37,918 nt of DNA from a virus (lineage: Duplodnaviria; Caudoviricetes), in the IMG/VR virus record IMGVR_UViG_3300010148_000038, positions 1-37,918 of that record; one strand, 5' to 3'. Positions 20,501-33,760 of this stretch are shown piece after piece; within the stretch, counting starts at the first letter, position 1, and each line of letters opens with the position of its first letter. A model generated the notes under the pieces. That model had not been told where the DNA came from. It saw only the letters and a program-made list of their open reading frames with translations, and did not search any database. Made by a program: the position numbers and the translations under genes.

Positions 20501-23500
20501 TTCACAAGCCAACAAACTGCTACAGTTGTAGGTATTCGTGAATTAGATACTACTACAGGTGGTATGGCACTCATACTTGCTAATGCTACTATGGCAGATG
20601 TAAGAGGTTGTGAAATTATGATTAATGAAGTTATGTTAGACCATGACCCCGATGCAGGTAGTCAATTTACTAACATACCTCCTTTGATGACATTTAATCC
20701 ATTTGGAGTACAGGGTACAGAAGCACCCGCATTTACTCGCCAATCATTACCATATCATCCTCAAATGTTTGTAGACTCCACACCGGGTATGACTACTAAC
20801 ATACCGTGGTGGTCTATAGTACACCCATCTAAACCTACTACAATTACAGGTAGTACAAGTGCAAGAGGTTTCCGATTTTTAACCCATCATAGATTAGATA
20901 ATTATTACTTATTCATAAGAGCAAATGCGGGTAGCATAGGCGCACAACTTACACTCGCAGGTTATCCAAGTCTACACCCTAACATCTATGATTCAGTATT
21001 GAGAAACATTAGTCTAAATCCTCATTGTACATTAGTAAGTAATACTTCAACTGTACTGACAGTAGATGATGCAAGCGGATTCCCAATAGAACCATTGTAC
21101 GGTGAGGTATTATATTTCATTGATGCTGACGGCGTAAGGCGTACTGCTACTTGGACTTCAAGAAGTGGTTTTGACGCTACCAATATGAACAAACCTAAAC
21201 TCATCACACTTACGGGCGCACAGGCAGATTTTACAAATAATTTAGTTGCCGGTACAGTTATCCGTTTATCAAAACAAAATGATATAAATAGAGATGCGGT
21301 TGAAATTTTCACCGATTCGGAAAGAAGTATGATTACAAGAACTTTACCACAAACACTTCAAGGTAGTAGAGATACAAACAGTCTTCATGTACCCGATGCG
21401 TATATTTGTCTTTGGTCGCCTAATTTGGGTAGACCAAATGCTAAAGCATATGAAGGGGATGAGTATGCTAATACAGGTTCATCTACATCTACTACACCTG
21501 TAAATCATATGCCGGAGCATTATGAAACAATACATTATCATGACAGTACATACTATGCAAGTCTTGGTCCTTTTGCACTACACATAGAAACTCCTATGCC
21601 GCCGGATTCTACTAACGCTACCGAGCGTAAAGTAGCAAGTCATGGCACTAATACTATTGTGACAAATGCTAGTTTTACTATAGCCGGTGGAACTAAGATA
21701 AGTGTAGATGGAAGAATATATACAGTAGATACTACCGGAACTACGAGTAATGGAACTACTATAACAGTATTTGAAAATACTCCTACTACAATAAAAGTAG
21801 GAAGCACAGTAATGGTTGGCGGAGATGGTTCACCTGCCTCTTCTGCTACAGTAGCAACTAAGAGAGATGCAGAAGGAAATCCATATGTGCCCCAAGCAGG
21901 TACTCCGGGTAGTTTTGCTAATAGAACAAGTATTGTTTCTGCTATGTTAAACAACTTTTGGCCTAGTGGTAGCAAAGGTGGACCATTAGTAAGTAGACTT
22001 GACGGATATGGTTATGTGAGTGCTTCGTGGCATTTACCTACGCAATATGGATATTCTATATCGAGTAATAACAATGGGATTCTTTGGCAAGATTTAGGAG
22101 ATGATGGCTCTTATGATGCTACTACAGGTGTAAGTAATACTGATTACGATACAGTTATGGCGACTTGGGATAGTTATACTGCCGGTAATCAAGCCTTCCC
22201 TAATGTAAGACCAAGACCATTCGGATATAGATTTGGACTACGACAACCATACAACAAACCTCAATGGGCTATGTATGGTATGAGAGCGTACATTGAGGCC
22301 GGTGTGACCGCTACAAACGCTTTATCCGAATATCAACACGGACCATTAGTACAAATTGATAGAAATAACAACACTTGGACATATGCCGGTGGAAAGTCTT
22401 CACCTACAAGTGGTAATATAAGTGATGTATATACAGGTATATTAGAAAGACAAACTAATTTTCAAGGTATGCTTAACGATGAAATATTTGGTACTCAAAC
22501 AAGATATGCAGACGGTATGCGTATGACAAGACCATTTGGTTGTCCTGTAAGAACACTAAGAAATGTATCTCATATGGCAGAAGATGAACTAATTAATAAA
22601 TTATTAAATCCAACCGTAAGAAGAGAATGGTGGGGAGATAGTTTCGGTAAGGGTATATACGATGTGGCAACTGCTTCACAATACTATCTTGTAGATTGGT
22701 GGGGTAATACTCGTGGTGAAGATGTTAGGAGGATGCCTGTTCGTGGATTTGGTATAAGACCTGCGTGGGATGCTCAAGATGCTTATGAGCATTTCCCTAA
22801 CTCAAATTTAGACGGAAGTAATAGACCATATACTCCTTTTTATCATGGTTATAAATACTATAATACTAAAAATGTAATAGACTTTGACACTACAAATATG
22901 GGCTATTTAGTATCATCAAGTACATCTACCGCTTTAGCAGGTCCACAATCATATCAAAAAGTACCATCACAAGTAGGTAATTATGACCCATTAGGCGAAA
23001 ATAGAAAAAACATGCTTGTGGATTTCTTTTTCCCGTATCACGCAAATAGAGTAGGGAGTGCTGGTAATGGAAGAGGTGTAAGATACCCAACATCATTTAG
23101 TGATGGTAGTTTTAGTAAATTAGATTTATTTAACACTCAAAATAATAAAGGTTTAGTGTTATCTCATAATACGGCAGAACCTAATTTGGGTGAAGGGTAT
23201 ATTAGAGCGAACAATAATATCATGGGTACAGATGAAGTTCCAAGAGGAATTAGTAATAGACTAAACATAAGTGAAGACGGTTTATTAAAACCGGAGGCTA
23301 CAGTAAGTGATAGAGACATTGGTGGTGTAGAAGCAGATTATACAGTATACGATATGATAAGTAGGAGTAGTCCAAAAATAGGTTTAGATGGTGAAAATAT
23401 TCACGGTATAGATAAGAATAATATTGTTATAAATTCAGTGGCATATAGTTTACATACTGATAGAAATGTAGGACAAAGAGGTATACTAAGTCATACAAGT

Positions 23501-25021
23501 AGAATAGGTTCATTTGTGCATGACCCTGCGGGTATTATGTATAATTTCCGTAATACATCTATGTTTTCACCTTATGGTGGTTCTTACATAATGGAAATGA
23601 GAAATTATATGTCATTTATTACATTAGGAGATTGGGGTTCATTAGTACCGACTCACGGATTAGCACTTTGGCTTAGAGCCGATAGTTTAGATTTAAATGA
23701 CGGTGATAGTATTGCAGAATGGGAAGACCAAAGCGGCGGAGGAAGAGATTTTACACAATCTACTGCTTCAAAGAAACCAACATTTGTAGCCTCCGATGCA
23801 ACATTCAATAGTAGACCATGTTTAAGTTTTGATGGTGGCGACCAACTAACTCTTAATTTTGATGCTAATTTAAACACTAATGAATTTACTCAATTTATAG
23901 TCATGTCTGTGACTAATGACAATGATGATTTCCAAGTAGGTTTTGAAAGTAGAGGTTCTACTCCTGTAGCAAGGTCGGGATATAACATATTTGCTGATAT
24001 GACAGGCGACGGTAGTTCTGCGGGTCATCAATGGGAGTTTTGGGCAGGGCAAGATGGAAGTTATGGTCAAGCAATATCAGCAGTAGGAAGTGCAACTTTA
24101 AATCAACCTAATTTAATAACTATGTTTATTGATGGTGGTAATGGTGCAGGTGGAACTGTGACCGCACAGACATTAAGAATTGATGGTACACAAGTAGCAA
24201 CACTAACTCCTAATTATTACAAATCTACTGCTAATCAACAATGCATAGGTACGATAGGTGCATCTTCTTCACCATTGTTAGGTAAGATTGCTGAAATAAT
24301 ACAATATGGTAGGCATCTTAGTGATAAAGAAATAACTATGGTAGAAGGTTATCTTGCTAATAAATATAACATAACTGTGCCAATTCAAGTAAAATCATCT
24401 AATCCCTATTTCACAGGTTCTTTTAATACAGATGCGAATAAAATAGATGAATCTATATCATTCTTAGTTAGACCAATTAGAGTACTTAATAAACATCAAG
24501 TTAAAATCGGTGAAAGAATGACTTTAAGTTCCTCATCACCTCAATACAGTTCTATTAATGGTAATTATTTTTCTCAAAGTATTGGTGGTAAGTATGGTGT
24601 ATTTGCATACAATATGCCTAATGCGAGAGCATCCGAAGGATATTATATTAGAGCAACTAACCCCGATACTAACCCACCTTATGCACCTATAACTTATAAT
24701 GCAACTGTTGATGGTGTACACCAACAAATATATTCTAGTACTAATGATACATTAACTATATTTAATCCTACAGAAATAAAATATACAGATTCAACATATA
24801 AACTTCCATCATTAAACAATAAAGTAAACAGAATACTAATTAGTGAAAATACTTTACAACACTATAGAGCAGATGCTAACAGAAGAAGAAGTGAAGTTGA
24901 AGGGGAAAATAAAATTACAAGAAAAGACTTTACAGTACAACCAAGATTTAGCCAATCATTACACCCGAAGGGTCATAAAAACGATGTATCTTATAATAAA
25001 GGCGACCATACAGGAGAGTGA
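5588..25021 (+). CDS. Giant virion structural/adhesion protein (6,477 aa) with N- and C-proximal LamG/concanavalin A-like domains
   Basis: An uninterrupted 19,434-nt ORF inside the tail module. N-terminal LamG-like motifs: FAIEAWV, YHVVGAV..ISLFVNGKL, VYVGG..YRGVVESIH, ALYRFEE. Second LamG-like domain at 23642-24373: LALWLRAD..WEDQSG..KPTF..LSFDG..GKIAEIIQY..VEGYLANKY. It is T/S/G/N-rich. Confidence 0.8.
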   Translation: MVAIGRSSHAFFFDGVSDSILIPQGRFTKLGDNHSIGAGMNIVNKTSPSDILSKTGKGKDETTLINSKFDNEFAIEAWVIPDCGGIIVERERQFKLEIGTVDTPGPAKFTVYLDTKNGTKPFVLSTATDVNTRWDGIVFPEQEFSGIHDSYNRYDLTNYNDATNLNFNHRPLYHVVGAVSNKNISLFVNGKLLVSQTKPTDAKMTDSTAHVYVGGKGGDYRGVVESIHFANRFDEQIITPNVPMDNGTTTTALYRFEEPIDVIEETYTITALGSDSASPYAAATDGTTTTLTISATDAQALIERLTGKQYDSTNTTINFTESPYSMGNYATYNNYNNPNTPTVNPIPHTPYNIIINPGAINRNTHKPNNSPPERLRILSINGATGVITVNSIHLDFTLATTGLRGILHSRTKDVDDYFVVVPADLLIDLVTGKPYQPPHFNTQIIDKTGQMILDETINAQHGIVYSSQMATSISHPLNPFAVTWPTTLNEKYQVGHSGRHKFSHIEGHEYMRRYPRPTSMKIDQKISGSADIIEMDYANIAKGIDKLFIKNQLADFYNENSQAPITSIINNANAGTVFTNGLIPSKEEIIAITVDDHKPFMLKGPIPQVLDRSSLNQSERYYHLKPETESRVALLHVPTLKSTHNLAPYVEIHYNAIDLTGDSMQAQSTNPTPMLMVEKTVPKGSLTLTGTTTVLDVIKADIADANKDTTIYSPGGYIELANPVSNMGEYFTETNSLIGDNTGGAEYDIELNFDFTPRKEDFTAGYTPSSDSNAQPATTPQVITSSHNKSTHPSVYHKLCIEPTSVDSITTLTDLGNTQFKMGAETINTATATFDKGGVNQGSPIFEMFDIIDNVYVNTSSVSARIYIQPSKKTRTNQLAKLRNGIEKGKTPNLISLYFLASRTRIRSVKQINDSESNSVITQVTATGIVEEAINETVSLMGSGSPNSHVVQEIEPNAPVVSITLGGPGQGAINTKPTYDPSPLMRLPGSTRRNCVVRAISVCTLDTVKNMSVQPLNNDSEDIRSWGTYAFPKKGRIFLNDGANAEYSGKVAAGFFFDDANAIAERKYISSSGDIFSSFNDWCLGVDLISNQTKGTHSVNEHIFNDIDFSYENLCDDGSTVNDRLFQSIDDVVHDYQLSTQYASTRAMVEIPVFPQQFFDQQADGIFPGPDNSMKVHLDATYTAHTWNPTPVGRRVEEIQPNDREANSAYSENVEGKKYFTSTSITQIVESGNDLKIYVENINVFPNTLGPLDMNNFKNVVSNHRFFIDDDWAYYTNDPITDGYVKIYNKPSTIGNGGYHGFNTEELFEKLVVGCKVSVGVSNPSLKSINSDITTQSSDYENRSPYYHDTANVQTQGGNLDYGLRQYVSAVEFKAGPLSNPHTPRTKTKRASAKIIQGTQLAGQIYALELDDVKHFIDTNYTLDVSGNPVVGTGDLLIIGKVFSATPIEVLYLGTQFNGEFSLNTTNNNTIIVQFGTGVTVPNLQDVEFKLEKVGRSHLALSNIAQITSNEGIVSTFRPTTTNEIWNFVGTTSATSTTTLTISCASATRSAIANTIGLNLRPGDMLYKESGSTIAYVGTVAYVHSRFHTGHATNTTVELAANNAVALAATDKVRIGINSVMANDADAILNKSWCNPYAAGGLRNGDTVWMNMTMNNAHAVEGLFAKSRGVFNEAQVYKAFNGGEGQLTNRPRDSIPLENFLIGDSCLETAINFVQHVNKTIELNYEAMGLSASQAPTIAYIDPYLASDGHTRVLLYDVAHDREFISFHDIHMQVQTSPSTPVIGHTRNLATKDGYYQLDNVLTQINGGAPHYLTTQIDVANGFPSENRYIRSTQQSKFIESAYSHNIANQTSNDLYPIGSVVNGVITGNPVNDFIMENPLKGFSSSPITNIENEHYMGKGHGHVVHSGLYHESVGTNFHIADSVLPRIEPATHSSFYANKKHNELRVNKGDTRILPMVRVLKAHRRAQGYSTFTFKDNSTFFDTPDGTRVISAFLCLKGIRGEELNLINHEESRLQHLPQWSKMDYIRRQTIDFGEVGVKEGVTDIEAAAREIVRMVNQGAAKNGRTHARRPSHQYPGESERMDLTRIGVREDVNNPNKDPASAHVNADFAATGSTHDPAPFWSLEHATATQDRGSHMGYLRAHIGRVIEDINGVEGFTVVIHSTVPGASGRNFCAWLDNSKGQSPYQPQFLVGHGGRFRNFWCQQDETMGENMHPAPMPLNKHGRPFAPITTLREMINSENSIDDVKSNHDYISRLNDDEKARVLSSHVGSGAFSNTIFDESFESQSQSLTLVEGLRIGTKPVGRINFGGLVATGVPGFSPIVGKFGCGVKGDNTFDSLYGSLTHTYGGYIDGAQIKSGKIGTDDLYGFRFTDHRGKSYGIRFVYKKLGDNFTNDNTLIPNSLDNEIGVFFNDRDVSQGGFSLGNHIVGKGDATGQITDTSVLSKVNYKGNRWRGVYAPDSLINASVKWESTTDTLTVKFYSSSIYESAYSGKGLESVEDILGYLGFPKENGIIQINDTFTGTTAKGSLGNTLSYTTRTQENGHLSRTHVFYGIKGSAFTASHTVAGTGTVSTSTGITDTVNAHPNSTGEWAYVLISSRMNWTTLLTDEVMAAATEAAINLVDVNIEEGVSFDCTSMLAADGRTLGEWGVSPDAIKLRAFNPNNDKLIPPSTMFSATRHEDKGIESAHAEYGLYSSFNQGGTITGLSIKTTGGSYFISTGGGENVVASMGAGSSGFFGSSSTDDIGAIDISSVDGGGGVTGVVIVNGGQGFRVGDEIDLVQQPFGSNGNDGCTLVVTSVSGSLGGQIFSTNADNKPLSDADLLLNKQVFCGYVPKTVLQIESKGRGFHANTPTPVLVDSTNSPIDTSVWAKNLKGVDYTRSRGDHIIPCINELSFGANTDIRRKGSIATIQEFLTGSPSGNNSVAGTGFAKNTIYSTGKKGAVLSANNATQAGSGFTTAGVYTVFGGSGKGMKLNLPSNNVPAEIGTASNFTAYKLDFGEGYVVGDALHIENNNTLDVGNPTGSGTAMKFTVASVSSGEGAKIMPTSITPLGGITAATIIDRGKNFVDEDYIRVLPVEDGKEVAMIRVSNISNASISTDFVFTHDQRLHATLVPQSLDDKTQFARFKSVGERGTFYIGKDKSAVFRSDGTNLLPIVQNEEFIKLFDEKSFADTKVMMTRNPNHQINGRRFHGSVDSEPIVYFRGAKDSVDHSVPLYFGGGFTGVTVDINDGTKNDYSTFYTHPYSNGPTGTAGIQNANEISTSFATLDCNALFAFFPGAALVNQNRGSLNSPVFNKNNILSPDVHAGMLEANTNNASWVNSKYSAGVVRQKPTPLVLQFAHPTARYEDYQNAGATTHTGKPNVENKTMYLIYGPGQSIPFSESTSNIGGGTFPTTTQEPHPGTVVTVGNTWSKVPYNMNLPNALTNDANVFAPPTKAFQAARNAYHYAVPSTQAMNWSPPAGVPNKGKLEQRPEHGYHYGEHFNNPRSGKIIEENSSEYLKAHPYKHSAMTYFGIAMSADMTWHMDGGYHPGGHWLDNQVAANPKNHTSNTFVTKWGSTPVHPTAFRVSSKIVIGVSDRGRLTYTYNEVNGNTPTVNEDCIIVDATRCQNGEELATIIGQAINENPGKGALKALGGTFMPSMGNANRQDRYGWAELTFQSYEIDGDDILDGFGIGNFPFNHGEYFGDGTHSHINAGDLIVSVTASISGNAQSVLEQLPACGWIRTDAGGRDFFAAGGGTMGQVPAFAPYHSREVYLHSAGNYRVRFYLAPNRISGLPFFEDGYSFYNKCQSASGISFPPITTAAKISLVGNVAVTVNGSGTKNIVHTEKIFVWSKAGVHRFNNENEATRDHMTQVHFSGLVDAIDRTRPVGAVGWAGERYSYLNSLEVETVSGTKLYAAGLGAWYQKLGFSPYGSSNSCMGGLGHFPHIRPMPHSPEASPRINGRANNASTSIQVPYEWNMGLGTNDSWYTNYIYNNTEGSPYGRFLNQDSTSLITEKAESDDNTLDALNSFEGVYSRAFLVVSYESELPLVAKYDRDGITGTGDWLSVVSATKAGTAAATAITYAGTTRWDERIHGYDRFTAPANAGPHVEALITPHLKIPLETDSFPTYGVHDELPALAQTWSDSVTGSLQNNSVEVLIDRANQGIIFAGMYVIHANLPADTKVVRVDADDEIVYISNQATATVNNTQITFMVLGDNRVSNATPCLNPTGDLIQDIDISPASLNLDLLEGLKNHTKSKFSTNHRETSFDIYAQDDSWVGDTNAFAMARNSPSKNFTVENIVWKRMDGGNLSLPSVNKRGLGAVPTITRVKNNVPYTTGETIFGNNRFTFETTNSAMFPIIQAQELMHPQMATKNPDELRNVLIIPNEEIQFKSISVEDDTGQIHTVEGGSPFGTIIRGFRKISDRISEGLAPAVAANDGHDDTPTQDMKYYGVEPNLEIQLPDANSIPGNILVRSGFDRIQAYQHETLGSGGITRPSYQGHNGAGELFDENFAKLGGLSNNINEGPKLGPTYDDYGWEHISQDLHGDIKFPDSTKSGWVNNTKNNPINTSYKPHDRSLYFHITKNNLGSSERLPIQYTHTNGVVENNLTIAMSDGFNLILNSALNYKVWKGVTYDITDTPTNIQKLHNSPFETHSTNFYVNIKNSNLNKSALLLIKPASTTVFTIQEYDDKISALQILFDLTDDEVIGLTVNEVIQITQAKMNVSGPAYDSPNTITINPAYPIPAGTTRIFAARRIRDHAEVSGNSPDANNQLLSHRLVPYGTTASVGTRLPYYEQFAHNNLSPMAMPRMGHHFVNATMAVMPGHWAHPAYQGLYHKHKACTSATLTIKEKALLEDIILNPGDTLSASIKDQLAVYDPLLVISSMTATPSGPSDIHGGAFTLMFESKIKHDGYGVLASHGEAGAINKAGGHTIVLRANARYTFNNHFPDPSIVGAYQIIIQPNVFSSQLMGYHENGPANNMPDGSNVGFTSQQTATVVGIRELDTTTGGMALILANATMADVRGCEIMINEVMLDHDPDAGSQFTNIPPLMTFNPFGVQGTEAPAFTRQSLPYHPQMFVDSTPGMTTNIPWWSIVHPSKPTTITGSTSARGFRFLTHHRLDNYYLFIRANAGSIGAQLTLAGYPSLHPNIYDSVLRNISLNPHCTLVSNTSTVLTVDDASGFPIEPLYGEVLYFIDADGVRRTATWTSRSGFDATNMNKPKLITLTGAQADFTNNLVAGTVIRLSKQNDINRDAVEIFTDSERSMITRTLPQTLQGSRDTNSLHVPDAYICLWSPNLGRPNAKAYEGDEYANTGSSTSTTPVNHMPEHYETIHYHDSTYYASLGPFALHIETPMPPDSTNATERKVASHGTNTIVTNASFTIAGGTKISVDGRIYTVDTTGTTSNGTTITVFENTPTTIKVGSTVMVGGDGSPASSATVATKRDAEGNPYVPQAGTPGSFANRTSIVSAMLNNFWPSGSKGGPLVSRLDGYGYVSASWHLPTQYGYSISSNNNGILWQDLGDDGSYDATTGVSNTDYDTVMATWDSYTAGNQAFPNVRPRPFGYRFGLRQPYNKPQWAMYGMRAYIEAGVTATNALSEYQHGPLVQIDRNNNTWTYAGGKSSPTSGNISDVYTGILERQTNFQGMLNDEIFGTQTRYADGMRMTRPFGCPVRTLRNVSHMAEDELINKLLNPTVRREWWGDSFGKGIYDVATASQYYLVDWWGNTRGEDVRRMPVRGFGIRPAWDAQDAYEHFPNSNLDGSNRPYTPFYHGYKYYNTKNVIDFDTTNMGYLVSSSTSTALAGPQSYQKVPSQVGNYDPLGENRKNMLVDFFFPYHANRVGSAGNGRGVRYPTSFSDGSFSKLDLFNTQNNKGLVLSHNTAEPNLGEGYIRANNNIMGTDEVPRGISNRLNISEDGLLKPEATVSDRDIGGVEADYTVYDMISRSSPKIGLDGENIHGIDKNNIVINSVAYSLHTDRNVGQRGILSHTSRIGSFVHDPAGIMYNFRNTSMFSPYGGSYIMEMRNYMSFITLGDWGSLVPTHGLALWLRADSLDLNDGDSIAEWEDQSGGGRDFTQSTASKKPTFVASDATFNSRPCLSFDGGDQLTLNFDANLNTNEFTQFIVMSVTNDNDDFQVGFESRGSTPVARSGYNIFADMTGDGSSAGHQWEFWAGQDGSYGQAISAVGSATLNQPNLITMFIDGGNGAGGTVTAQTLRIDGTQVATLTPNYYKSTANQQCIGTIGASSSPLLGKIAEIIQYGRHLSDKEITMVEGYLANKYNITVPIQVKSSNPYFTGSFNTDANKIDESISFLVRPIRVLNKHQVKIGERMTLSSSSPQYSSINGNYFSQSIGGKYGVFAYNMPNARASEGYYIRATNPDTNPPYAPITYNATVDGVHQQIYSSTNDTLTIFNPTEIKYTDSTYKLPSLNNKVNRILISENTLQHYRADANRRRSEVEGENKITRKDFTVQPRFSQSLHPKGHKNDVSYNKGDHTGE

Positions 25022-26431: not shown

Positions 26432-26779
26432 ATGGCTATCTCAAATGCTTTAAAAAATACTTTGTTAAATACTATTAAAACAAGTATTACTTCTATGGTA
26501 CTCGGTTTTGATGGTACACCTGCTACAAATGATGACGGTAGTGCTGGTAGACCTGCAATTACTTTAACTCCTATAGTAACCCAAATAGATGAAACAACAC
26601 TACTGATAGAAGCATCGCTACCTATCAATGAAAGTTTTACAGATACGATAAAAGAAGTAGTATTATTAGGTACTAATGCAGTAGGACAGTTTTATTTAAT
26701 AGGTAGATATAATACTAGACCCATAGTAAAAACTACACAGAATGAAGTTAAAGTAGAAATTAGCATAGAGGTGGTATAA
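26432..26779 (+). CDS. Small tail-tip / fibre-attachment protein (115 aa)
   Basis: MVLGFDGT..TIKEVVL..GRYNTRPIVKT..VKVEISIEV resembles tail-collar or fibre-attachment domains. GAGGA lies upstream. Confidence 0.45.
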   Translation: MAISNALKNTLLNTIKTSITSMVLGFDGTPATNDDGSAGRPAITLTPIVTQIDETTLLIEASLPINESFTDTIKEVVLLGTNAVGQFYLIGRYNTRPIVKTTQNEVKVEISIEVV

Positions 26780-27933
26780 TGACAGGAAATCCAATATCGG
26801 GGCATACAAATCATAACATGACACTTAGTGGAACGGCACAACCTGTAGATGGTTTAACCGATGGTGACCATATCACATCTGCCACTCTTACAAATCTCCT
26901 TGAAGGGGTACATGGTAATGGTATCATCTTAGAAGAAGATACCGCTAAAGGTGCGGGTACAAGATTGCAACCGGAGAATTTACCGGGTATATGTGAAAGA
27001 ACAGGTGCTAATACTTTTACTGTTGCAGGTGGTACTGCGATATTAGATGGATTAGTATACACCTTTGCAGGTGGTTTCGGTAATAGTACAACATATACTA
27101 TTACTGCGGCAGATACAGAAGGAAGCAACACCGCTTTAACATCGGGTCAAGAAGCCGTAGTAGTAGTATACTTAGCGGCTGATTCATCAGTAAATCATGT
27201 AAAAATGGAAGTAGGTTCTGCTATTACTACTGGTACTAACAACTACCCTGTGACACCAAGTGCTTTTTTGAACAATCCTTCTTCTACAGATAACGAGCAA
27301 AGTATTGTATTATGTGTTTTAAGAGTAGTATATGACGCAGGTGGTGGAGACTTAAAGGTAAACATATCGGAGATAAATGACAAGCGAGTATTCGTAAGAC
27401 CTACACCTATTTACTTCACTCCTGTAGTAGATGGTGCGGTAGGTGCTACAGATGCCGTGGCTTCCCATGCTGACTTAGATGCTTTCCATTCGGGTAATGC
27501 CGGAGGTAATTTTACCGCATCGAGACTAGGTGGTATGTGGATGGGTCGTGGTAGTCAAATAGGTAGTACTGTAGCGGGAGATAGTACAAAAGATGTACTA
27601 TACTTTAGCGGTACTCATGCGGCGAGATATAGCCGTTCAGTATTCGATAGAGTACTTACAAGTACTGCTACTTCGATAGACCTTACATCTACAGATGCTA
27701 ATGTACTTGTGCTTACACCCGGAGGTACATTTACTATCACTACAAGCGGTTCATTCCCTGCGGGGTATATAATCGAGATAAAGAATACTCATGGTTCTAA
27801 TACAGGTACATTCGCTCTAACTAACTCTACTACATCAGCGATAGGTGATACTGCTGACGCTGACGGTGGGTATGCGAGATTTGTATGTACGGTGAGCCAT
27901 GCCACCGACCCAACCTTTGTTCGTTTACTGTGA
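26779..27933 (+). CDS. Tail fibre-like virion protein (384 aa)
   Basis: FTVAGGTAILDGLVY and IVLCVLRV..ISEINDKRVF resemble fibre N-terminal anchor domains, followed by a T/G/S-rich C-terminal part. It is coupled by TAATG and has SD GAGGTGG. Confidence 0.5.
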   Translation: MTGNPISGHTNHNMTLSGTAQPVDGLTDGDHITSATLTNLLEGVHGNGIILEEDTAKGAGTRLQPENLPGICERTGANTFTVAGGTAILDGLVYTFAGGFGNSTTYTITAADTEGSNTALTSGQEAVVVVYLAADSSVNHVKMEVGSAITTGTNNYPVTPSAFLNNPSSTDNEQSIVLCVLRVVYDAGGGDLKVNISEINDKRVFVRPTPIYFTPVVDGAVGATDAVASHADLDAFHSGNAGGNFTASRLGGMWMGRGSQIGSTVAGDSTKDVLYFSGTHAARYSRSVFDRVLTSTATSIDLTSTDANVLVLTPGGTFTITTSGSFPAGYIIEIKNTHGSNTGTFALTNSTTSAIGDTADADGGYARFVCTVSHATDPTFVRLL

Positions 27934-27991: not shown

Positions 27992-28156
27992 TTATTTCAT
28001 AGCCGAGTCTTGCCAAAAGTGACCGCATTCTTTACATTGAAGTAAAGTGAAACGCTCACGCTCACCATCAAGATAACGAGCAGTGATTCTTCTTGCTATG
28101 TGTTTATGGCTACAAGCCCTACACTTCACTTTAAGCCTATCAATCAAGCGACCCAT
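27992..28156 (-). CDS. 54-aa zinc-ribbon protein resembling the TFIIS/TFS C-terminal domain (missing from the ORF track)
   Basis: My translation: MGRLIDRLKVKCRACSHKHIARRITARYLDGERERFTLLQCKECGHFWQDSAMK*, giving CxxC-x25-CxxC-GHxW. It starts 2 nt after the chaperonin stop, with GGAG upstream. Confidence 0.75.
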   Translation of the reverse strand: MGRLIDRLKVKCRACSHKHIARRITARYLDGERERFTLLQCKECGHFWQDSAMK

Positions 28157-28158
28157 GC

Positions 28159-29661
28159 TTACTCCAACGGTCTTCTTGCTACTATGTCGTCTATCCTTAG
28201 AATAGAGTTAGTGACTTCACTTGCACTCAATACTGCTTGACGGACAAGTTCAGTAGGCTCAAAGACACCCATAGATGCTAAGTCCTTTACTCCGCCATCT
28301 TCTACATTCGGTCCAAAATTGACATTACCTCTAAGTATCTCATGTCTCATAGCGAGTATGGTATCTAATGGGTCATGTCCGGCATTCTCGGATATAGTGG
28401 CAGGTATGACTTCTAATGCGTCTGCAAAGGCTTCTATAGCCATCTGCGCTCTACCACCTATCTGTGCGGCGTGTTGCCTCAAATGAGATGCCATACGAGC
28501 ATATGCTATTCCACCACCGATAACGAAGTTCTTGTTCTTTAACACTAAAGATACTACACCGAGTGCATCATCGAATCCTCTCTCTACTTCTTCAAGTGTA
28601 TGACTTGTTGCACCACGAAGAATTAGTGTTGCTTCATTATGTACATTATCACTTTCAACAAACAGATACCATACATCATTATGCTTTTCACGCTTAATTG
28701 ATGCTATGGAAGATTCATCTATTTCATCCGGTGTTTGATATATACTCGCACCTGTAATTCTCGCTAATGCTCTAAGAGATGATTCGGGTACACGGCGTAC
28801 TACCATAATACCATTCTTCTTTAGATACGCACATACATGGTCGTTTACTGCGTCACGAACAAACACTACACCACCTTTAGGTAATGCTTCAACAATGTTC
28901 TTTGCGAGTGAAATTAATGTTGTTTTACCCGACGCTTTGTAAGACTGAAATGACTTTGCATCAAGTTGAACTTGAATATTATCTTCATTCTTTTCATTCT
29001 CAAGACCTGTGTTAATGAGTAGTAGATTACTGTAGGTATCTTCACCATCCAATACATAATCCTTGTTTACAATACTTCCATTGTAAAGGTATGAGTCTTC
29101 AAGTGAGCCACCGGGGAATGATACTACTTTTACGCTTTCTGCATCACCCGCTTTCTCTACTGCTGATACGCATAGTTCTGCTACGGTATCAATAGCATTC
29201 TCTAATGTCTTACCTGTAATAGCCGTTTTAGCAACTGATACCAATGTATTTCTTTTCTTATTAGATAAAGAAATTTCATCGTTAAGGTAATTTATAGCCA
29301 TTTGAGTAGCCTCATGATAACCACGACATATTACATTCGGGTGTAAACCACGCTCAAACAATGCTTCGCTATTAGCCAACAATTGCCCTGCAAGAATAAC
29401 AGTACTTGTAGTACCGTCATAGCATAGGCTTTCTTGGGTCTTAGCGACCTCAACAATCATCTTACCACCGGGATGCGATACATCAAGTTCACGCAATATA
29501 GTAGCACCGTCATTGGTGACTATTACATTTCCGTGTCCATCTAACATTAGTTTATCCATACCCATAGGACCAAGCGTAGATTTTACCGTTTCCGATACTG
29601 TTTTAGCCGCCCTTATGTTATGTATCTGTGCTTTACTTTTCTTACTCTCTATTTCTGTCAT
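28159..29661 (-). CDS. ths: Group II chaperonin (thermosome subunit), about 500 aa
   Basis: Motifs TLGPMGMDKLM, VTNDGATIL, DGTTS, LILRGAT..LEEVERGFDDAL, GGG, FADALEVIP..ENAG, ILRIDDIV. A group II lid segment is present. The start is placed at ATG 29661 (TGATG overlap with the upstream stop). Confidence 0.95.
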   Translation of the reverse strand: MTEIESKKSKAQIHNIRAAKTVSETVKSTLGPMGMDKLMLDGHGNVIVTNDGATILRELDVSHPGGKMIVEVAKTQESLCYDGTTSTVILAGQLLANSEALFERGLHPNVICRGYHEATQMAINYLNDEISLSNKKRNTLVSVAKTAITGKTLENAIDTVAELCVSAVEKAGDAESVKVVSFPGGSLEDSYLYNGSIVNKDYVLDGEDTYSNLLLINTGLENEKNEDNIQVQLDAKSFQSYKASGKTTLISLAKNIVEALPKGGVVFVRDAVNDHVCAYLKKNGIMVVRRVPESSLRALARITGASIYQTPDEIDESSIASIKREKHNDVWYLFVESDNVHNEATLILRGATSHTLEEVERGFDDALGVVSLVLKNKNFVIGGGIAYARMASHLRQHAAQIGGRAQMAIEAFADALEVIPATISENAGHDPLDTILAMRHEILRGNVNFGPNVEDGGVKDLASMGVFEPTELVRQAVLSASEVTNSILRIDDIVARRPLE

Positions 29662-30266
29662 CACCAATCAACCTCTATTGTATTTATTTCTCCTGTTTCT
29701 AAATTCCTCGATTTGATATAACCCTCACTTTTACCAAAATTATACAAATCAAATGTAAGTTGTGCATCACTTAGACAATACTTCGCTACATCGTCGTACT
29801 GCCCTGCCCTCCATGCTATAGGGGCATCCTCACTGTTCATTAACTTATTGTCCTCTAAAGTGGTCTTTGTAAGTATTCCTAATGATGTATCTATCTTACC
29901 GACACTTGATGCGGCCTTTTGAACAAGATGCTTAGTATCAATAATACTTTCAGCCTTACCTAATAAGTCACCCGCAGTATAACAATCAAGAGAATCACGA
30001 AGTACGGGTAAATCAAATCCTTTTATGTTATGACCTATGATTTTACCACCCTTCTCTACATGGTCTGCTAAGTCTTCTCCGAGTGTACGGGGGTGTAATG
30101 CCTTTACTGTGGCATCTATATCTAAACTTTTATTACAATATATAGTACCATTATCGCCATCCCAAGTAGCAACTACCGAAGGGTCAAATGAAGCGGTTTT
30201 ATCCCAACCACCTATCTCCCAAGAATAATTACTTGTTTCAATATCTAATGCTAATATATCACTCAT
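29661..30266 (-). CDS. DEDDy 3'-5' exonuclease, RNase H-like (YprB/RNase_H_2 type), 201 aa
   Basis: ExoI LDIET, ExoII IIGHNIKGFDLPVL, ExoIII YCLSD. The start is placed at ATG 30266, overlapping the upstream stop. Confidence 0.85.
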   Translation of the reverse strand: MSDILALDIETSNYSWEIGGWDKTASFDPSVVATWDGDNGTIYCNKSLDIDATVKALHPRTLGEDLADHVEKGGKIIGHNIKGFDLPVLRDSLDCYTAGDLLGKAESIIDTKHLVQKAASSVGKIDTSLGILTKTTLEDNKLMNSEDAPIAWRAGQYDDVAKYCLSDAQLTFDLYNFGKSEGYIKSRNLETGEINTIEVDW

Positions 30267-31662
30267 GTTTCTTCGCACCCTTTCTACGGAGATAAACTCT
30301 TCCACCACTCATTTTCCGATTGAATAGTTTACTTGAATGGTCTTTAAAGTGCCTTTCTACTGTACTTTTAGAGACACCCACATTATCCATATACATTCGC
30401 CACATGGATGCTTGCCTTCTCCAACCATCACCTTGACCGTCAATTTCATAGCCTGTGCATTCATTGTATACCTTGAGCATATCTTCATGGATTTTACTTT
30501 CTTTACCTTTATTACCACCAATCTCAACTGAATCTTCCAACCAAGATATAAGATTCTTGAATAAGTCAAGAAGTATATCAAAAGCCATATCTACATGTTT
30601 AGCAGTTATCTTCCATTTGTTATCTAATACCGCCATATGGAGGGAGATAATACCGAGATAATTTTCTACCGCCGGAGTAAAGGATGCTACAATCTCGGAC
30701 ATACCGGCTGACATGTTTCTTAGCAAATCAAATATCTCATCGGATGCTTGATAGAGAGCAGTTTCATAGTCATCATCAGCACTAAACATTTCCCACATAT
30801 GCGCCTGTGCTATCTCTTCTTGTTCATCACGACTCATTTCTGTCCATACTGTAAATGATATTTCTGCAAAGTTAAGTAGTCTATCTCTTACTCTCTTTTC
30901 TGTACTTTTAAAATAATCGTATATATCATCCTTAGTCAAATCAGTTTCAATAGGTTTCTTCCAAAAAGTTCCAAGTCTTGTATTACTTACATCTTGCCTC
31001 ATATCCATATCCCAATGTGACCAATAAAGTAATACACGCTGAAAAATACCTTTAGTGAGTACATATTCTTTAACACCCTTTGGTGGGTATGTAGTAATCC
31101 AAAGTGAAACCAAAGATTCACATTTAACTATATCTCCCTTCATAGGTTTAGTTAATACATTTCCACCACTACCTACTGAATTGCATGCGGTTTGAAGATA
31201 AAGTACTGTTTCTTGAGAGTGTTTACCCGGATTAAGAATGATTGACCCTTCATCCACATTCAATCCTTTTCGCCCTTCTAATAAACCTTTGACCTTTTCA
31301 GTACCGACTTGTTGTTTAGTTTTTTCATCATATACGGGTTTATTAGAACCTATCAAACCTGCATCTGTACCTGTAGAATAAAATTCATAATCAAGTTCTG
31401 CATTCTTCATTACATCTCCAATGAAGTTCCATGCAACAGATTTACCTGTTCTTGACGGTTGAATCCAAAATACATGCACTCTTGGGTCAAGGTGTGAATC
31501 CCCCGTAGGTATTCTTACATATGGGAGTAATGCTTGTCCTTGTATGTAAAAGAAAGAAAGTAAACCCGGTATCTCATTCTTCATTGAAGTTTGAGAAAAA
31601 TGGTGTAAGTATGCCTCTAATGTATCAAATCTTTTTAACGCCTCATAATTCTTGTAATTCAT
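30259..31662 (-). CDS. MCM-like AAA+ ATPase/helicase with C-terminal winged-helix-like region (467 aa)
   Basis: HVFWIQPSRTGKS (Walker A), STGTDAGLIGS (MCM-type S/TxAGL), GLNVDEG (Walker B), SLWITTYP (sensor 1), IFQRVLL (Arg finger region), ITAKHVDMA, then VGVSKSTVERHF (HTH-like). Confidence 0.7.
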   Translation of the reverse strand: MNYKNYEALKRFDTLEAYLHHFSQTSMKNEIPGLLSFFYIQGQALLPYVRIPTGDSHLDPRVHVFWIQPSRTGKSVAWNFIGDVMKNAELDYEFYSTGTDAGLIGSNKPVYDEKTKQQVGTEKVKGLLEGRKGLNVDEGSIILNPGKHSQETVLYLQTACNSVGSGGNVLTKPMKGDIVKCESLVSLWITTYPPKGVKEYVLTKGIFQRVLLYWSHWDMDMRQDVSNTRLGTFWKKPIETDLTKDDIYDYFKSTEKRVRDRLLNFAEISFTVWTEMSRDEQEEIAQAHMWEMFSADDDYETALYQASDEIFDLLRNMSAGMSEIVASFTPAVENYLGIISLHMAVLDNKWKITAKHVDMAFDILLDLFKNLISWLEDSVEIGGNKGKESKIHEDMLKVYNECTGYEIDGQGDGWRRQASMWRMYMDNVGVSKSTVERHFKDHSSKLFNRKMSGGRVYLRRKGAKKHE

Positions 31663-31703: not shown

Positions 31704-32405
31704 TTATTTTCTAACCCTTCTTTCCTGTCGAACTTCCTCTTCACTCGTTAATACTTTAATTATTAATTTTCTTCGCACTTCGCCAAGTCCTTTAATTTTC
31801 TTTAGTGATTCGGGAAAGCACATCTCTTCTATGCTACCGCACTTCTCAAGTATTCTTTCTGCTATTTCAAGTCCTATACCCGGTATTGTCATTATCATAT
31901 CTAAGCGTAAATCATTACTTCCAACCCTGCGTATAGTTTGCGCCCCATGCCTACTTGCGGGTTTGTGTAGTTTATCGTGCAACTTTACAATGAACTGTGC
32001 GGCCTCACTTGTGTTTGTTGTAAAGAATACTTGGCAATCAAAATCAGCCATGATTCTCGCCATGTACCCTGTGAATGTTTCTTGTAATTGTGATATAGGA
32101 ATGTTAGAGTTAAATTGGTTTCTCATAAAAGTCGCATGTTTTGAAAGTGTACCATGTACTACAAGGAAGAATCTTTCTACATTAGCATCCATATTATCTA
32201 ATTGTTTTTGTAGGTGTCCACTAAACATTGATTGGAAAAAATCAGTGACACTCTTAGCCTCTACAAGCGCACCACCTAATTTGTAGTCACCTACTACCAA
32301 AGCCTGTCTAACTACTGTTAGCCCTGCACTCTTGGCTCGCCTATTAATGGCTTCACAAAGTACGCCTCTTTCATTACTGTCTATTATTAAATCAATTTTC
32401 GCCAT
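31704..32405 (-). CDS. XPF/ERCC4-family structure-specific nuclease with tandem HhH (233 aa)
   Basis: IIDSNE, GDY, VEAKSVTDFFQS, HLQKQL, then IPGIG and IKGLG HhH motifs. The start is placed at ATG 32405, 5 nt after SD AAGGTGA. Confidence 0.85.
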   Translation of the reverse strand: MAKIDLIIDSNERGVLCEAINRRAKSAGLTVVRQALVVGDYKLGGALVEAKSVTDFFQSMFSGHLQKQLDNMDANVERFFLVVHGTLSKHATFMRNQFNSNIPISQLQETFTGYMARIMADFDCQVFFTTNTSEAAQFIVKLHDKLHKPASRHGAQTIRRVGSNDLRLDMIMTIPGIGLEIAERILEKCGSIEEMCFPESLKKIKGLGEVRRKLIIKVLTSEEEVRQERRVRK

Positions 32406-32664
32406 TACTTTCACCTTGAATTTTATGATGAGAACAATAACCATCTATAACAATCACTCTACATCTTTTACCTTTACTGTTTATACCTTTACAAAAAAAC
32501 TTTTCCGGTAAATTATCTCTATCATTCACACAAGCATGACATAAATCAGTTTTACTTTCTCTCCCGTTTATAGGAGGTCGCATCCCCTTACCACAATGTA
32601 TACATTTTCTTGCGTTTATTGTGTGTTTCTTTTCTTCAAAATATTTATCAAATATATTACTCAT
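32392..32664 (-). CDS. Double zinc-finger protein (90 aa)
   Basis: CIHC..CHAC plus CKGINSKGKRC-x7-CSHH. The start is placed at ATG 32664, directly after the primase stop. Confidence 0.65.
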   Translation of the reverse strand: MSNIFDKYFEEKKHTINARKCIHCGKGMRPPINGRESKTDLCHACVNDRDNLPEKFFCKGINSKGKRCRVIVIDGYCSHHKIQGESNGEN

Positions 32665-32665
32665 A

Positions 32666-33760
32666 TTATTTTCCCCAATCTCCACTTCCGTCATAAAATT
32701 GACACTTACCTATACAAAATCCTTCATCATATAGGGTAGTACATGTAGCGTGTGGATAACCCGCCATGACTATGCTCGCAACCTGTTGTTCAGTCACCTC
32801 TTTATTATAATCTACCCAATTTTGCCCTGCACAAAATTTAGATATAATCTTTGAATGTTTCTTTTTATCTTCATTGGATATTTGCCAAGCAGGGAAAAAC
32901 ATACGAAACCTATCTGCTAAGTACGAGGCGAGATGGAATCTCGCTCTATGTGTAGGGTTTCCCCCTCCCAACGCTGCCTGTGATAAGCAGGGTAATATAA
33001 TCACATCATCTAAAAATACTGTAGGTATCTCAATAGGTTTTACATCAGCCATATTCATAATACGGCTCTTAATTATTTTCAGTTCTAATTTATTCTCTCC
33101 GAGTTCAATATACCCCGAATGGCTTTCTTGTGCTTTATCCATATAGTAATCAAAATCACCATTTAAAATATCCTCACTTGAAAGTGGTATACTCCAACAT
33201 TCTCTTCTCGCATTATACGAGTTAGGTATGCGTATCATACCGCTTGTATCGAATGCTACTGTAGGGTCATTACATCTTAGTGTACCTATCTTCTTCTCCC
33301 AAGAGTTAATCAATACCCTACCCGAATGTTTTATCCTTGATAATTCATTTCCACTCTTAGGGCTTAAGGTTTCTTTAAGTGGAATCCATACATGGAAACC
33401 ACCACCACTAAACCATATGAAATGAGATGTATTATCATTCATTAACATTCTATGGAGTCGTTTTACTTCTGTATGAGGTTTTTCAAACTCCACATCTTCT
33501 CCCCCATTCTTGAAATCTTTACAATCAAAATCCATTACAAAGTGATGGATAAGCGGAGTGTTATATTCCACTCTATGGTGCTTAGGTGCTTTAGTTTCAG
33601 TATAACCATAAGCGGTAAAATATACATTACCACTCCCACTCTTACCCTTCCAATAAGATTCTAATTCCTTACTATTCTTAACAAGCCTTCTCCACCCACC
33701 TACTCCCGAACTCGGTAGTTCTAATACTTCACGAGGGAAGTCAATAGGTACAAAGGGCAT
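32666..33760 (-). CDS. Archaeo-eukaryotic primase, PriS catalytic domain fused to a PriL Fe-S domain (364 aa)
   Basis: MDFD (DxD), FSGGGFHVW, D..MIRIPNSYN. The C-terminal LPCL..HRARFHLASYL..TC..GFCIGKC has four Cys like the PriL C-terminal domain. The start is placed at ATG 33760 after SD GGTGA. Confidence 0.9.
   Translation of the reverse strand: MPFVPIDFPREVLELPSSGVGGWRRLVKNSKELESYWKGKSGSGNVYFTAYGYTETKAPKHHRVEYNTPLIHHFVMDFDCKDFKNGGEDVEFEKPHTEVKRLHRMLMNDNTSHFIWFSGGGFHVWIPLKETLSPKSGNELSRIKHSGRVLINSWEKKIGTLRCNDPTVAFDTSGMIRIPNSYNARRECWSIPLSSEDILNGDFDYYMDKAQESHSGYIELGENKLELKIIKSRIMNMADVKPIEIPTVFLDDVIILPCLSQAALGGGNPTHRARFHLASYLADRFRMFFPAWQISNEDKKKHSKIISKFCAGQNWVDYNKEVTEQQVASIVMAGYPHATCTTLYDEGFCIGKCQFYDGSGDWGK

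What the first reader, a model, noticed from the sequence alone, without database searches (positions are those of the whole stretch)
27992..28156. Unannotated TFS/TFIIS-like mini-protein: possible viral effector of host RNA polymerase
This 54-aa ORF is below the track cutoff. CRAC-x25-CKECGHFWQD parallels the TFS/TFIIS C-terminal ribbon (CxxC-x24-CxxCGxxW). The catalytic hairpin QTRxxDE appears as TARYLDGE, with the acidic pair split by Gly, and the protein is very basic and lacks the N-terminal TFS domain. Cleavage-inactive paralogues such as Sulfolobus TFS4 inhibit RNA polymerase through the secondary channel. A virus-encoded version could shut off or redirect host transcription. It is the last gene of the - strand block, coupled to the chaperonin.
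Basis: partly seen in the sequence, partly recalled or inferred. Interest (0 to 1): 0.7.

Follow-up and report, generated by a model that had tools for sequence, protein, structure and literature searches.

The report
Core magrovirus zinc-ribbon microprotein
A real, strongly conserved 54-residue gene of marine archaeal viruses encodes a protein predicted to fold as a zinc ribbon resembling transcription factor TFS, but it lacks that factor's catalytic motif and likely serves as a small nucleic-acid-binding helper of the virus's DNA-processing genes rather than as a blocker of host RNA polymerase.

Summary
The ORF is real: window 27992-28156 (-), 54 aa, CxxC-x25-CxxC-xxx-W, under strong purifying selection (pN 0.004 at pS 0.11). 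It is a single-copy gene in 23 of 24 polymerase-selected magrovirus contigs. A 43-aa form occurs in a second, GroEL-type magrovirus group. TFS C-ribbon is the best match in a small profile panel and tops Foldseek, but never significantly. Pfam prefers DUF7479, and most of the TFS score comes from the Cys/Trp skeleton. The proposed catalytic parallel fails: Q[TM]RxxDE occurs in 0 of 111 family sequences, and conservation lies in the hairpin stem (R-h-x-G-x-Y, h-W-E), not the tip. Chaperonin coupling is incidental. The short form ends the same ERCC4 / P-loop / exonuclease block with no thermosome (88 of 88 loci), and 26 of 126 long-form loci lie on the strand opposite the thermosome. A viral TFB is adjacent in 5 loci. 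Best reading (about 0.4): a nucleic-acid-binding accessory of the DNA-processing block. A TFS4-like RNA polymerase effector is possible (about 0.2) but unsupported. The scan noted this family before on other DNA (e1-6008293).

The parts
27992..28156 (-). 54-aa C4 zinc-ribbon microprotein: predicted N-helix 2-8, knuckles C12/C15 and C41/C44, long beta-hairpin 22-40, W48
   Evidence: AF2 pLDDT 83.1, pTM 0.55; conservation; selection
28159..29667 (-). thermosome (Cpn60/TCP-1) gene; sits between exonuclease and zinc ribbon in this virus group only
   Evidence: PF00118 E 1e-126; absent from the short-form loci
29661..30308 (-). 3'-5' exonuclease-like gene (215 aa); its homologue precedes the short-form ribbon gene
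   Evidence: phrog_403 / phrog_17 E about 4e-10; synteny 88 of 88
30259..31662 (-). 467-aa protein with Walker A- and B-like motifs read from the sequence (P-loop NTPase inferred; no library match)
   Evidence: sequence; no Pfam hit; no PDB hit; homologue in short-form loci
31704..32444 (-). ERCC4 nuclease with HhH motifs; first gene of the conserved ERCC4 / P-loop / exonuclease / (thermosome) / ribbon run
   Evidence: PF02732 E 2.7e-16; same family in L362 E 1.5e-18
26779..27933 (+). last gene of the convergent structural block (384 aa; tail-fibre-like by position only, no Pfam match); marks the junction where the ribbon gene sits

Best explanation
This is a conserved magrovirus gene for a small protein predicted to form a TFIIS-type zinc ribbon, which likely binds nucleic acid through its basic, aromatic hairpin stem and likely serves as an accessory of the ERCC4 nuclease / P-loop protein / exonuclease block that processes viral DNA late in replication. 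Shown: gene, selection, near-universal single copy in the contigs tested, two subfamilies, synteny, loss of the TFS motif. Predicted: fold (AF2); zinc binding (four invariant Cys). Inferred: R23 and W39/L39 form one binding face, while I24, G/A26, Y28 and I/F36 form the packing face; the ligand is nucleic acid; the partner is the DNA-processing block.
For: Four Cys and W48 are invariant in 59 of 59 long-set sequences. Over 111 sequences the stem is what is kept: R at +8 in 108, G/A at +11 in 111, Y at +13 in 104, W at -2 in 98; tip length and acids vary. The inter-knuckle segment has net positive charge in 50 of 59, with +2 or more in 43 of 59; none of 25 TFS ribbons exceeds +1. The gene closes the ERCC4 / P-loop / exonuclease run in both virus groups: 93 of 126 long-form loci lie downstream of the thermosome on the same strand, and 88 of 88 short-form loci with upstream DNA lie within 400 nt of the exonuclease (9 more were too short). 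It is present once in 23 of 24 contigs chosen by PolB, not by this gene; the miss is 66% complete and also lacks the thermosome.
Against: No binding data of any kind; the function rests on gene order and surface chemistry. 26 of 126 long-form loci carry the gene on the strand opposite the thermosome, 0.7-4.3 kb away, so it can leave the operon. A basic ribbon surface is also how the TFS4 C-ribbon docks in the RNA polymerase funnel (PMC8448823, passages). The family is closer to TFS C-ribbon (HH score 39.6-41.2) than YgiT, NrdR, Ogr or TFS N-ribbons are (17.6-24.6). A viral TFB is adjacent in 5 loci. The face assignment comes from DSSP strand limits, not from model coordinates.
Confidence: 0.4

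Rival explanations
1. A TFS-derived, cleavage-inactive single ribbon that would dock in the funnel or jaw of host RNA polymerase and inhibit or redirect transcription, like TFS4.
For: Same 24-residue spacing as TFS in 69 of 111 sequences and a gapless 41-column alignment of the short form. TFS C-ribbon is best in the HH panel and by family HMM (median 14.5 bits against 3.9-9.6 for the other five sets). TFIIS-type chains are the top six Foldseek rows and 5 of 7 weak phmmer rows. A two-domain archaeal TFS paralogue (P0060) scored E 6.8e-4 in the whole-library search. TFS4 docks through a basic ribbon. TFB is adjacent in 5 loci.
Against: With knuckles, flanks and Trp fixed, shuffles already score 29-33 of 39.9 and reach it in 3, 2 and 1 of 60 runs, so the hairpin signal is marginal. 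Pfam gives DUF7479 29 of 38 against TFIIS 3 of 38 at E <= 0.05. VIA-align ties TFIIS (Z 3.2) and TFS4 (3.0) with NrdR (3.6, 3.5) and a RAZR-complex chain (3.8). No ZR-N or linker, which position TFS4. The tip decides function in TFS1/TFS4 (PMC5715097, passages), yet here it varies: a three-residue K/R run is in 3 of 111. In a poorly resolved tree the family does not nest in TFS.
Confidence: 0.2
2. A DNA-binding or TFB-associated switch that would turn on late (structural) transcription, analogous in position to P2 Ogr.
For: It stays at the junction of replication and structural blocks and can lie on either strand. P2 ogr likewise follows the last tail gene. Four contigs read thermosome-ribbon-TFB with overlapping or abutting ends, and a fifth has TFB convergent with it.
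Against: No sequence kinship to Ogr (score 21.3, 10 columns; 2, 0 and 7 of 40 shuffles reach it). TFB is missing from 4 of 5 near-complete ribbon-bearing genomes. Four incomplete TFB-bearing genomes of another group show no ribbon. The junction collects many accessory genes.
Confidence: 0.17
3. A late-acting assembly, packaging or lysis accessory whose ribbon is a protein-binding module.
For: It lies on the strand opposite the thermosome in 26 of 126 loci; in 9 loci a homologue of the last structural gene lies upstream on the same strand. In the short-form group a ~50-aa hydrophobic ORF lies directly upstream in 11 of 11 loci inspected.
Against: In most loci it is on the replication strand; no match to structural proteins.
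Confidence: 0.12
4. A dedicated cofactor of the viral thermosome.
For: 2 nt from the thermosome stop here; co-occurs with it in 23 of 24 contigs.
Against: No thermosome hit in any of 97 short-form loci (many are short). Their genomes carry a distant GroEL-type chaperonin elsewhere (4 of 5) or none (G250, 96% complete). Three thermosome-bearing viruses have no ribbon ORF within 1.5 kb.
Confidence: 0.03

Closest known systems
Archaeal TFS C-terminal ribbon / TFIIS, Rpb9, A12.2, C11 (PF01096, TIGR01384; PDB 1qyp, 1tfi)
   Same: C4 ribbon with 24-25 residues between knuckles, long hairpin, aromatic two residues before Cys3, Trp after the second knuckle; best HH-panel and Foldseek neighbour
   Different: No QTRxxDE (0 of 111, against 23 of 25 TFS controls), no N-ribbon or linker, far below curated cut-offs (11.4 vs 21 bits; 16.2 vs 64.75), own stem motif R-h-x-G-x-Y
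Sulfolobus TFS4 (PDB 7oqy)
   Same: Basic ribbon without catalytic acids; VIA Z 3.0
   Different: TFS4 is host-encoded, two-domain, with a short Lys-rich tip; this protein is viral, single-domain, with a full-length, variable tip
DUF7479 / DVU_1557 family (PF24292, NF045645) and YgiT-type fingers (TIGR03831)
   Same: Stand-alone ~60-aa long-hairpin C4 ribbon with a Tyr-x-Gly-like element before the tip; best Pfam match for all subfamilies
   Different: Below cut-off in my scans (24.5 vs 27 bits; 20.7 vs 60); bacterial by Atlas taxa; my single fetched member scored only 8.7 bits on the family HMM
P2 Ogr / Delta late activators (PF04606)
   Same: Small C4 gene at the end of a tail block (some loci)
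   Different: No sequence signal; different knuckle spacing

Membership tests
TFS/TFIIS cleavage factor | Q-T/M-R-x-x-D-E hairpin with adjacent catalytic Asp-Glu | tested here: not met
   0 of 111 sequences; 23 of 25 TFS controls. Adjacent DE occurs in 9 of 111, and in 11 of 43 close proteins counted by eye, but is not conserved.
TFS/TFIIS cleavage factor | Two-domain build (N-ribbon plus linker, or TFIIS domain II) | tested here: not met
   43-~90 aa single-ribbon proteins; the profile search over 23-251 aa and the whole-library search found no family member with a second ribbon
TFS/TFIIS cleavage factor | Score above curated cut-off of PF01096 / TIGR01384 | tested here: not met
   11.4 vs 21 bits; 16.2 vs 64.75 bits
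TFIIS-type zinc-ribbon fold | C4 knuckles 24-25 apart, three-stranded ribbon, Trp after knuckle 2 | tested here: met
   sequence; AF2 model
TFIIS-type zinc-ribbon fold | Structural match clearly above other ribbons | tested here: inconclusive
   Foldseek top six but E >= 0.13; VIA Z 2.9-3.8, all tied
TFS4-like RNA polymerase inhibitor | Short tip with two to three consecutive Lys | tested here: not met
   three-residue K/R run between knuckles in 3 of 111; full TFS spacing kept; feature from PMC5715097 passages
TFS4-like RNA polymerase inhibitor | Binds the RNA polymerase funnel and inhibits transcription | not testable with these tools
   needs biochemistry with a Poseidoniales-type polymerase
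DUF7479 / DVU_1557 | Score above curated cut-off | tested here: not met
   window 24.5 vs 27 bits; five short forms 18.5-25.2; NF045645 20.7 vs 60. The database's precomputed column does list PF24292 for some members.
DUF7479 / DVU_1557 | Profile-profile similarity beyond the Cys skeleton | tested here: inconclusive
   only one member could be fetched; score 19.9-20.3
Ogr/Delta | Ogr sequence profile (CxxC-x22-CxxxxC) | tested here: not met
   score 17-21 over 9-10 columns; not among the Pfam rows shown

The most novel reading that the evidence does not exclude
Magroviruses carry, as a core gene, a minimal stand-alone ribbon derived from TFS that enters the host RNA polymerase funnel and, with a viral TFB in some lineages, reprogrammes host transcription: a virus-encoded secondary-channel effector in archaea.
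Probability: 0.18. Interest if true: 0.75.

Novelty: new member of a known kind. Interest (0 to 1): 0.33.

Why it matters
It adds an unnamed small core gene, conserved across two Magrovirales groups, to the gene set of very abundant marine archaeal viruses, and gives a motif for annotating it. If it proved to act on RNA polymerase, it would be a virus-encoded counterpart of the host inhibitor TFS4. The papers read describe RIP as the viral and TFS4 as the host inhibitor (PMC9501531, PMC8448823). As a generic nucleic-acid-binding ribbon it is of modest interest.

Tried and rejected
Co-folding with stand-in Thermoplasma acidophilum Rpo1N 445-872 plus Rpo1C and Zn gave no answer (score 0.00 twice, partner fold uncertain, controls not folded); it is not used for or against. 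No Poseidoniales polymerase could be fetched: the thermosome scan of genome contigs found nothing, and no archaeal genome handle was reachable. RNA runs (4 of 19 laid) are low-depth contigs covering both strands' genes and only parts of the ORF, so they say nothing on expression. Host origin: the one successful scan of 185,579 genomes, with exact patterns of the distant long clade only, gave L089, a contig with magrovirus structural-gene homologues inside a bacterial MAG, and an 11-aa match without a family ORF. This is not a sensitive test for host homologues. INPHARED phages: no relative for either form. YSH_150918 is not held. No canonical TFS in 4 virus records; the only row (E 0.465) is this gene itself. 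ESM Atlas gave unnamed archaeal clusters at 0.92 and mixed ribbon families. BFVD had nothing at E <= 0.001. P0127 and P0137 looked like fusions but are unrelated proteins mis-clustered. The first shuffle control (0 of 40) also moved flank and gapped columns and overstates the TFS signal; one search is the fairer one. A 44-row tree on 52 columns is mostly unresolved. The sigma-70 promoter scan is not relevant to an archaeal virus. The 467-aa protein could not be named.

Full report
Observation. The - strand ORF 27992-28156 encodes 54 aa with C12-x2-C15-x25-C41-x2-C44 and W48. It starts 2 nt after the stop of a 502-aa thermosome gene and faces a convergent + strand block. The window looks like a magrovirus: PolB, PD-(D/E)XK, ERCC4, an exonuclease and a thermosome on one strand, a tail-tube-like gene and a 6477-aa ORF on the other. 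Philosof et al. place thermosome genes in groups A and D and GroEL in B, B1 and C (PMC5434244, passages). Assignment of the window to group A is my inference from this.

It is a real gene. Two scans gave 88 IMG/VR loci (the second kept the best 80 of 108) and 43 distinct full-length proteins. Among 63 distinct nucleotide sequences, pairs with pS 0.02-0.2 averaged pS 0.110 and pN 0.004. Of 27 PolB-selected contigs over 60 kb, 24 were held. 23 of 24 carry one copy and a thermosome; the miss, G222 (66% complete), lacks both.

The family is wider. A profile search of 1.84 billion representatives returned distant long forms, 43-aa forms without the N-helix, and, at E 6.8e-4, one two-domain archaeal TFS paralogue. 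A distant long clade gave 37 viral loci. The short form gave 72 metagenome and 27 viral loci, partly the same contigs. Long and short profiles match at HH score 109. Short-form genomes are 86-92 kb, carry a distant chaperonin that I read as GroEL-type in 4 of 5, and in L362 have an HMG-CoA-lyase-like neighbour. This fits the Aoguangviridae description (PMC10768690, whole text); I did not map them to the type genome, which was not held.

Context. Of 126 long-set loci, 93 lie downstream of the thermosome on the same strand, 26 lie on the opposite strand 0.7-4.3 kb away, and 7 have no thermosome in the fetched DNA. Of 99 short-form loci, 97 were located. All 88 with at least 400 nt upstream have the exonuclease homologue ending within 400 nt on the same strand, and none has a thermosome hit. 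The 18 loci listed show ERCC4, P-loop-like protein, exonuclease, a ~50-aa hydrophobic ORF, then the ribbon. The simplest reading is that the thermosome was inserted into an older ERCC4 / P-loop / exonuclease / ribbon run. Of 79 loci fetched with a viral TFB profile (13 close, the rest distant TFIIB-like), 5 have the ribbon beside TFB (Pfam). TFB is absent from 4 of 5 near-complete ribbon-bearing genomes and weak, below cut-off, in 2 of 5 short-form genomes. Viral TFB in magroviruses is already in print.

What it resembles. Pfam's best match is DUF7479 (E 2.9e-5, below cut-off); TFIIS ranks 14th of 15 (E 0.29). Over 38 members at E <= 0.05, DUF7479 hits 29 and TFIIS 3. NCBIfam at E <= 0.1 gives DVU_1557 23 and TFS_arch 15. 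Five of five short forms again prefer DUF7479. AF2 gives a confident ribbon (pLDDT 83.1; helix 2-8; strands 22-27, 35-40, 47-49). Foldseek's first six rows are Rpb9/TFS/C11/TFIIS/A12 chains at E 0.13-0.35 (chain names partly, partly recalled). VIA-align ties everything at Z <= 3.8. In an HH panel built from fetched sequences, the 59-sequence long set scores TFS C-ribbon 39.6, YgiT 32.2, TFS N-ribbon 24.9, NrdR 22.4, Ogr 21.3, and one DUF7479 sequence 19.9. The short set aligns to TFS without gaps (39.9), whereas other real ribbons score 17.6-24.6 against TFS. But with knuckles, flanks and Trp fixed, shuffles average 29-33 and reach the observed score in 3, 2 and 1 of 60 runs. The TFS panel is narrow (25 relatives of one protein), and DUF7479 is under-sampled. 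Conclusion: TFIIS-type fold; descent from TFS is plausible and unproven.

The hairpin. In 111 distinct sequences, Q[TM]RxxDE occurs 0 times, RxxDE twice, adjacent DE 9 times and a three-residue K/R run 3 times. R-h-x-G/A-x-Y/F occurs in 106 and W[EQ] before Cys3 in 96. TFS controls have the motif in 23 of 25. The 111 include only part of the 43 close proteins, of which 11 have DE at the tip by eye, so adjacent acids do occur in one clade. In register, TFS Arg faces the family's Tyr, and TFS Asp-Glu faces a variable turn (G-S-x in the short form, D-G-E here). In TFS1 and TFS4 the tip decides function (PMC5715097, passages). TFS4 is placed by its N-ribbon and linker and docks by a basic C-ribbon (PMC8448823 and PMC9501531, passages). 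This family conserves the stem, lacks the anchor, and lets the tip vary.

Mechanism. Shown: gene, selection, distribution, synteny, loss of the TFS motif. Predicted: fold and Zn binding. Inferred: alternating stem positions put R23 and W/L39 with further basic residues on one face, a typical nucleic-acid-binding surface, and I24, G/A26, Y28, I/F36 on the packing face. With its place at the end of the nuclease run in both virus groups, I commit to a nucleic-acid-binding accessory of late DNA processing (0.40). Rivals: TFS4-like RNA polymerase effector (0.20), late-transcription or TFB-linked switch (0.17), assembly or lysis accessory (0.12), thermosome cofactor (0.03).

Novelty. I found no description of this gene. 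Searches were magrovirus + thermosome (3 papers), magrovirus + zinc (2 papers, listing only), Poseidoniales + virus + TFB (1), Magrovirales + TFS (0), and archaeal viruses + TFIIS + zinc ribbon + Caudoviricetes (0). 'Zinc' does not occur in the main texts of PMC5434244, PMC11706807 or PMC10160649 (passages). I did not read their supplementary annotation tables, which may list it as a Zn-finger protein; JGI names some members 'uncharacterized Zn finger protein'. Zhou et al. 2023 was seen only as a reference. An earlier agent of this scan reached a similar view on another genome; this is not independent support. Verdict: a new, well-conserved family of a known kind of small viral zinc ribbon; interest 0.33.

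Noticed in passing
L119:6180-7094, L123:6167-7081, L122:6170-7090, L124:6170-7108, L278:8001-8903: Full-length viral TFB (Pfam TFIIB E 3e-41 for L119; 53-60% identity among four copies) at the replication/structural junction next to the ribbon gene in one thermosome-bearing clade; in L282/L289 TFB sits in the replication block instead.
   Followed up: partly
G242-G245 (L284-L288, L357-L359): A different virus group with TFB directly before a divergent PolB (25% to the window's), a thermosome in 3 of 4 contigs, and no ribbon-family match in 24-51% complete contigs.
   Followed up: partly
short-form loci, e.g. L362:5855-5998: Conserved ~50-aa ORF with one hydrophobic stretch ending in an LFFAAFG-like motif and an acidic tail, between exonuclease and ribbon gene; possible small membrane protein.
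   Followed up: no
window 30259-31662 (-): 467-aa protein with Walker A/B-like motifs, conserved in both groups (21-26% identity to short-form homologues), with no Pfam, PHROG or PDB match; may be the MCM-like helicase of published maps, not tested.
   Followed up: partly
L122:4531-6201: Thermosome reads in frame into the ribbon gene (556 aa); the sequence suggests a short deletion near the thermosome 3' end or an assembly error.
   Followed up: partly
L025:5360-5995, L026: A 211-aa protein with a weak C-terminal HTH match is inserted between thermosome and ribbon gene.
   Followed up: partly
window 5588-25021 (+): A 6477-aa ORF in the structural block, not examined.
   Followed up: no
L089 (NZQM01000134.1): A contig with magrovirus structural-gene homologues and the ribbon gene inside a Parvibaculum MAG; probably a mis-binned viral contig.
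   Followed up: partly
window 32392-32694 (-): A second small Cys-rich ORF (100 aa, DUF5763 at cut-off) just upstream of ERCC4.
   Followed up: no
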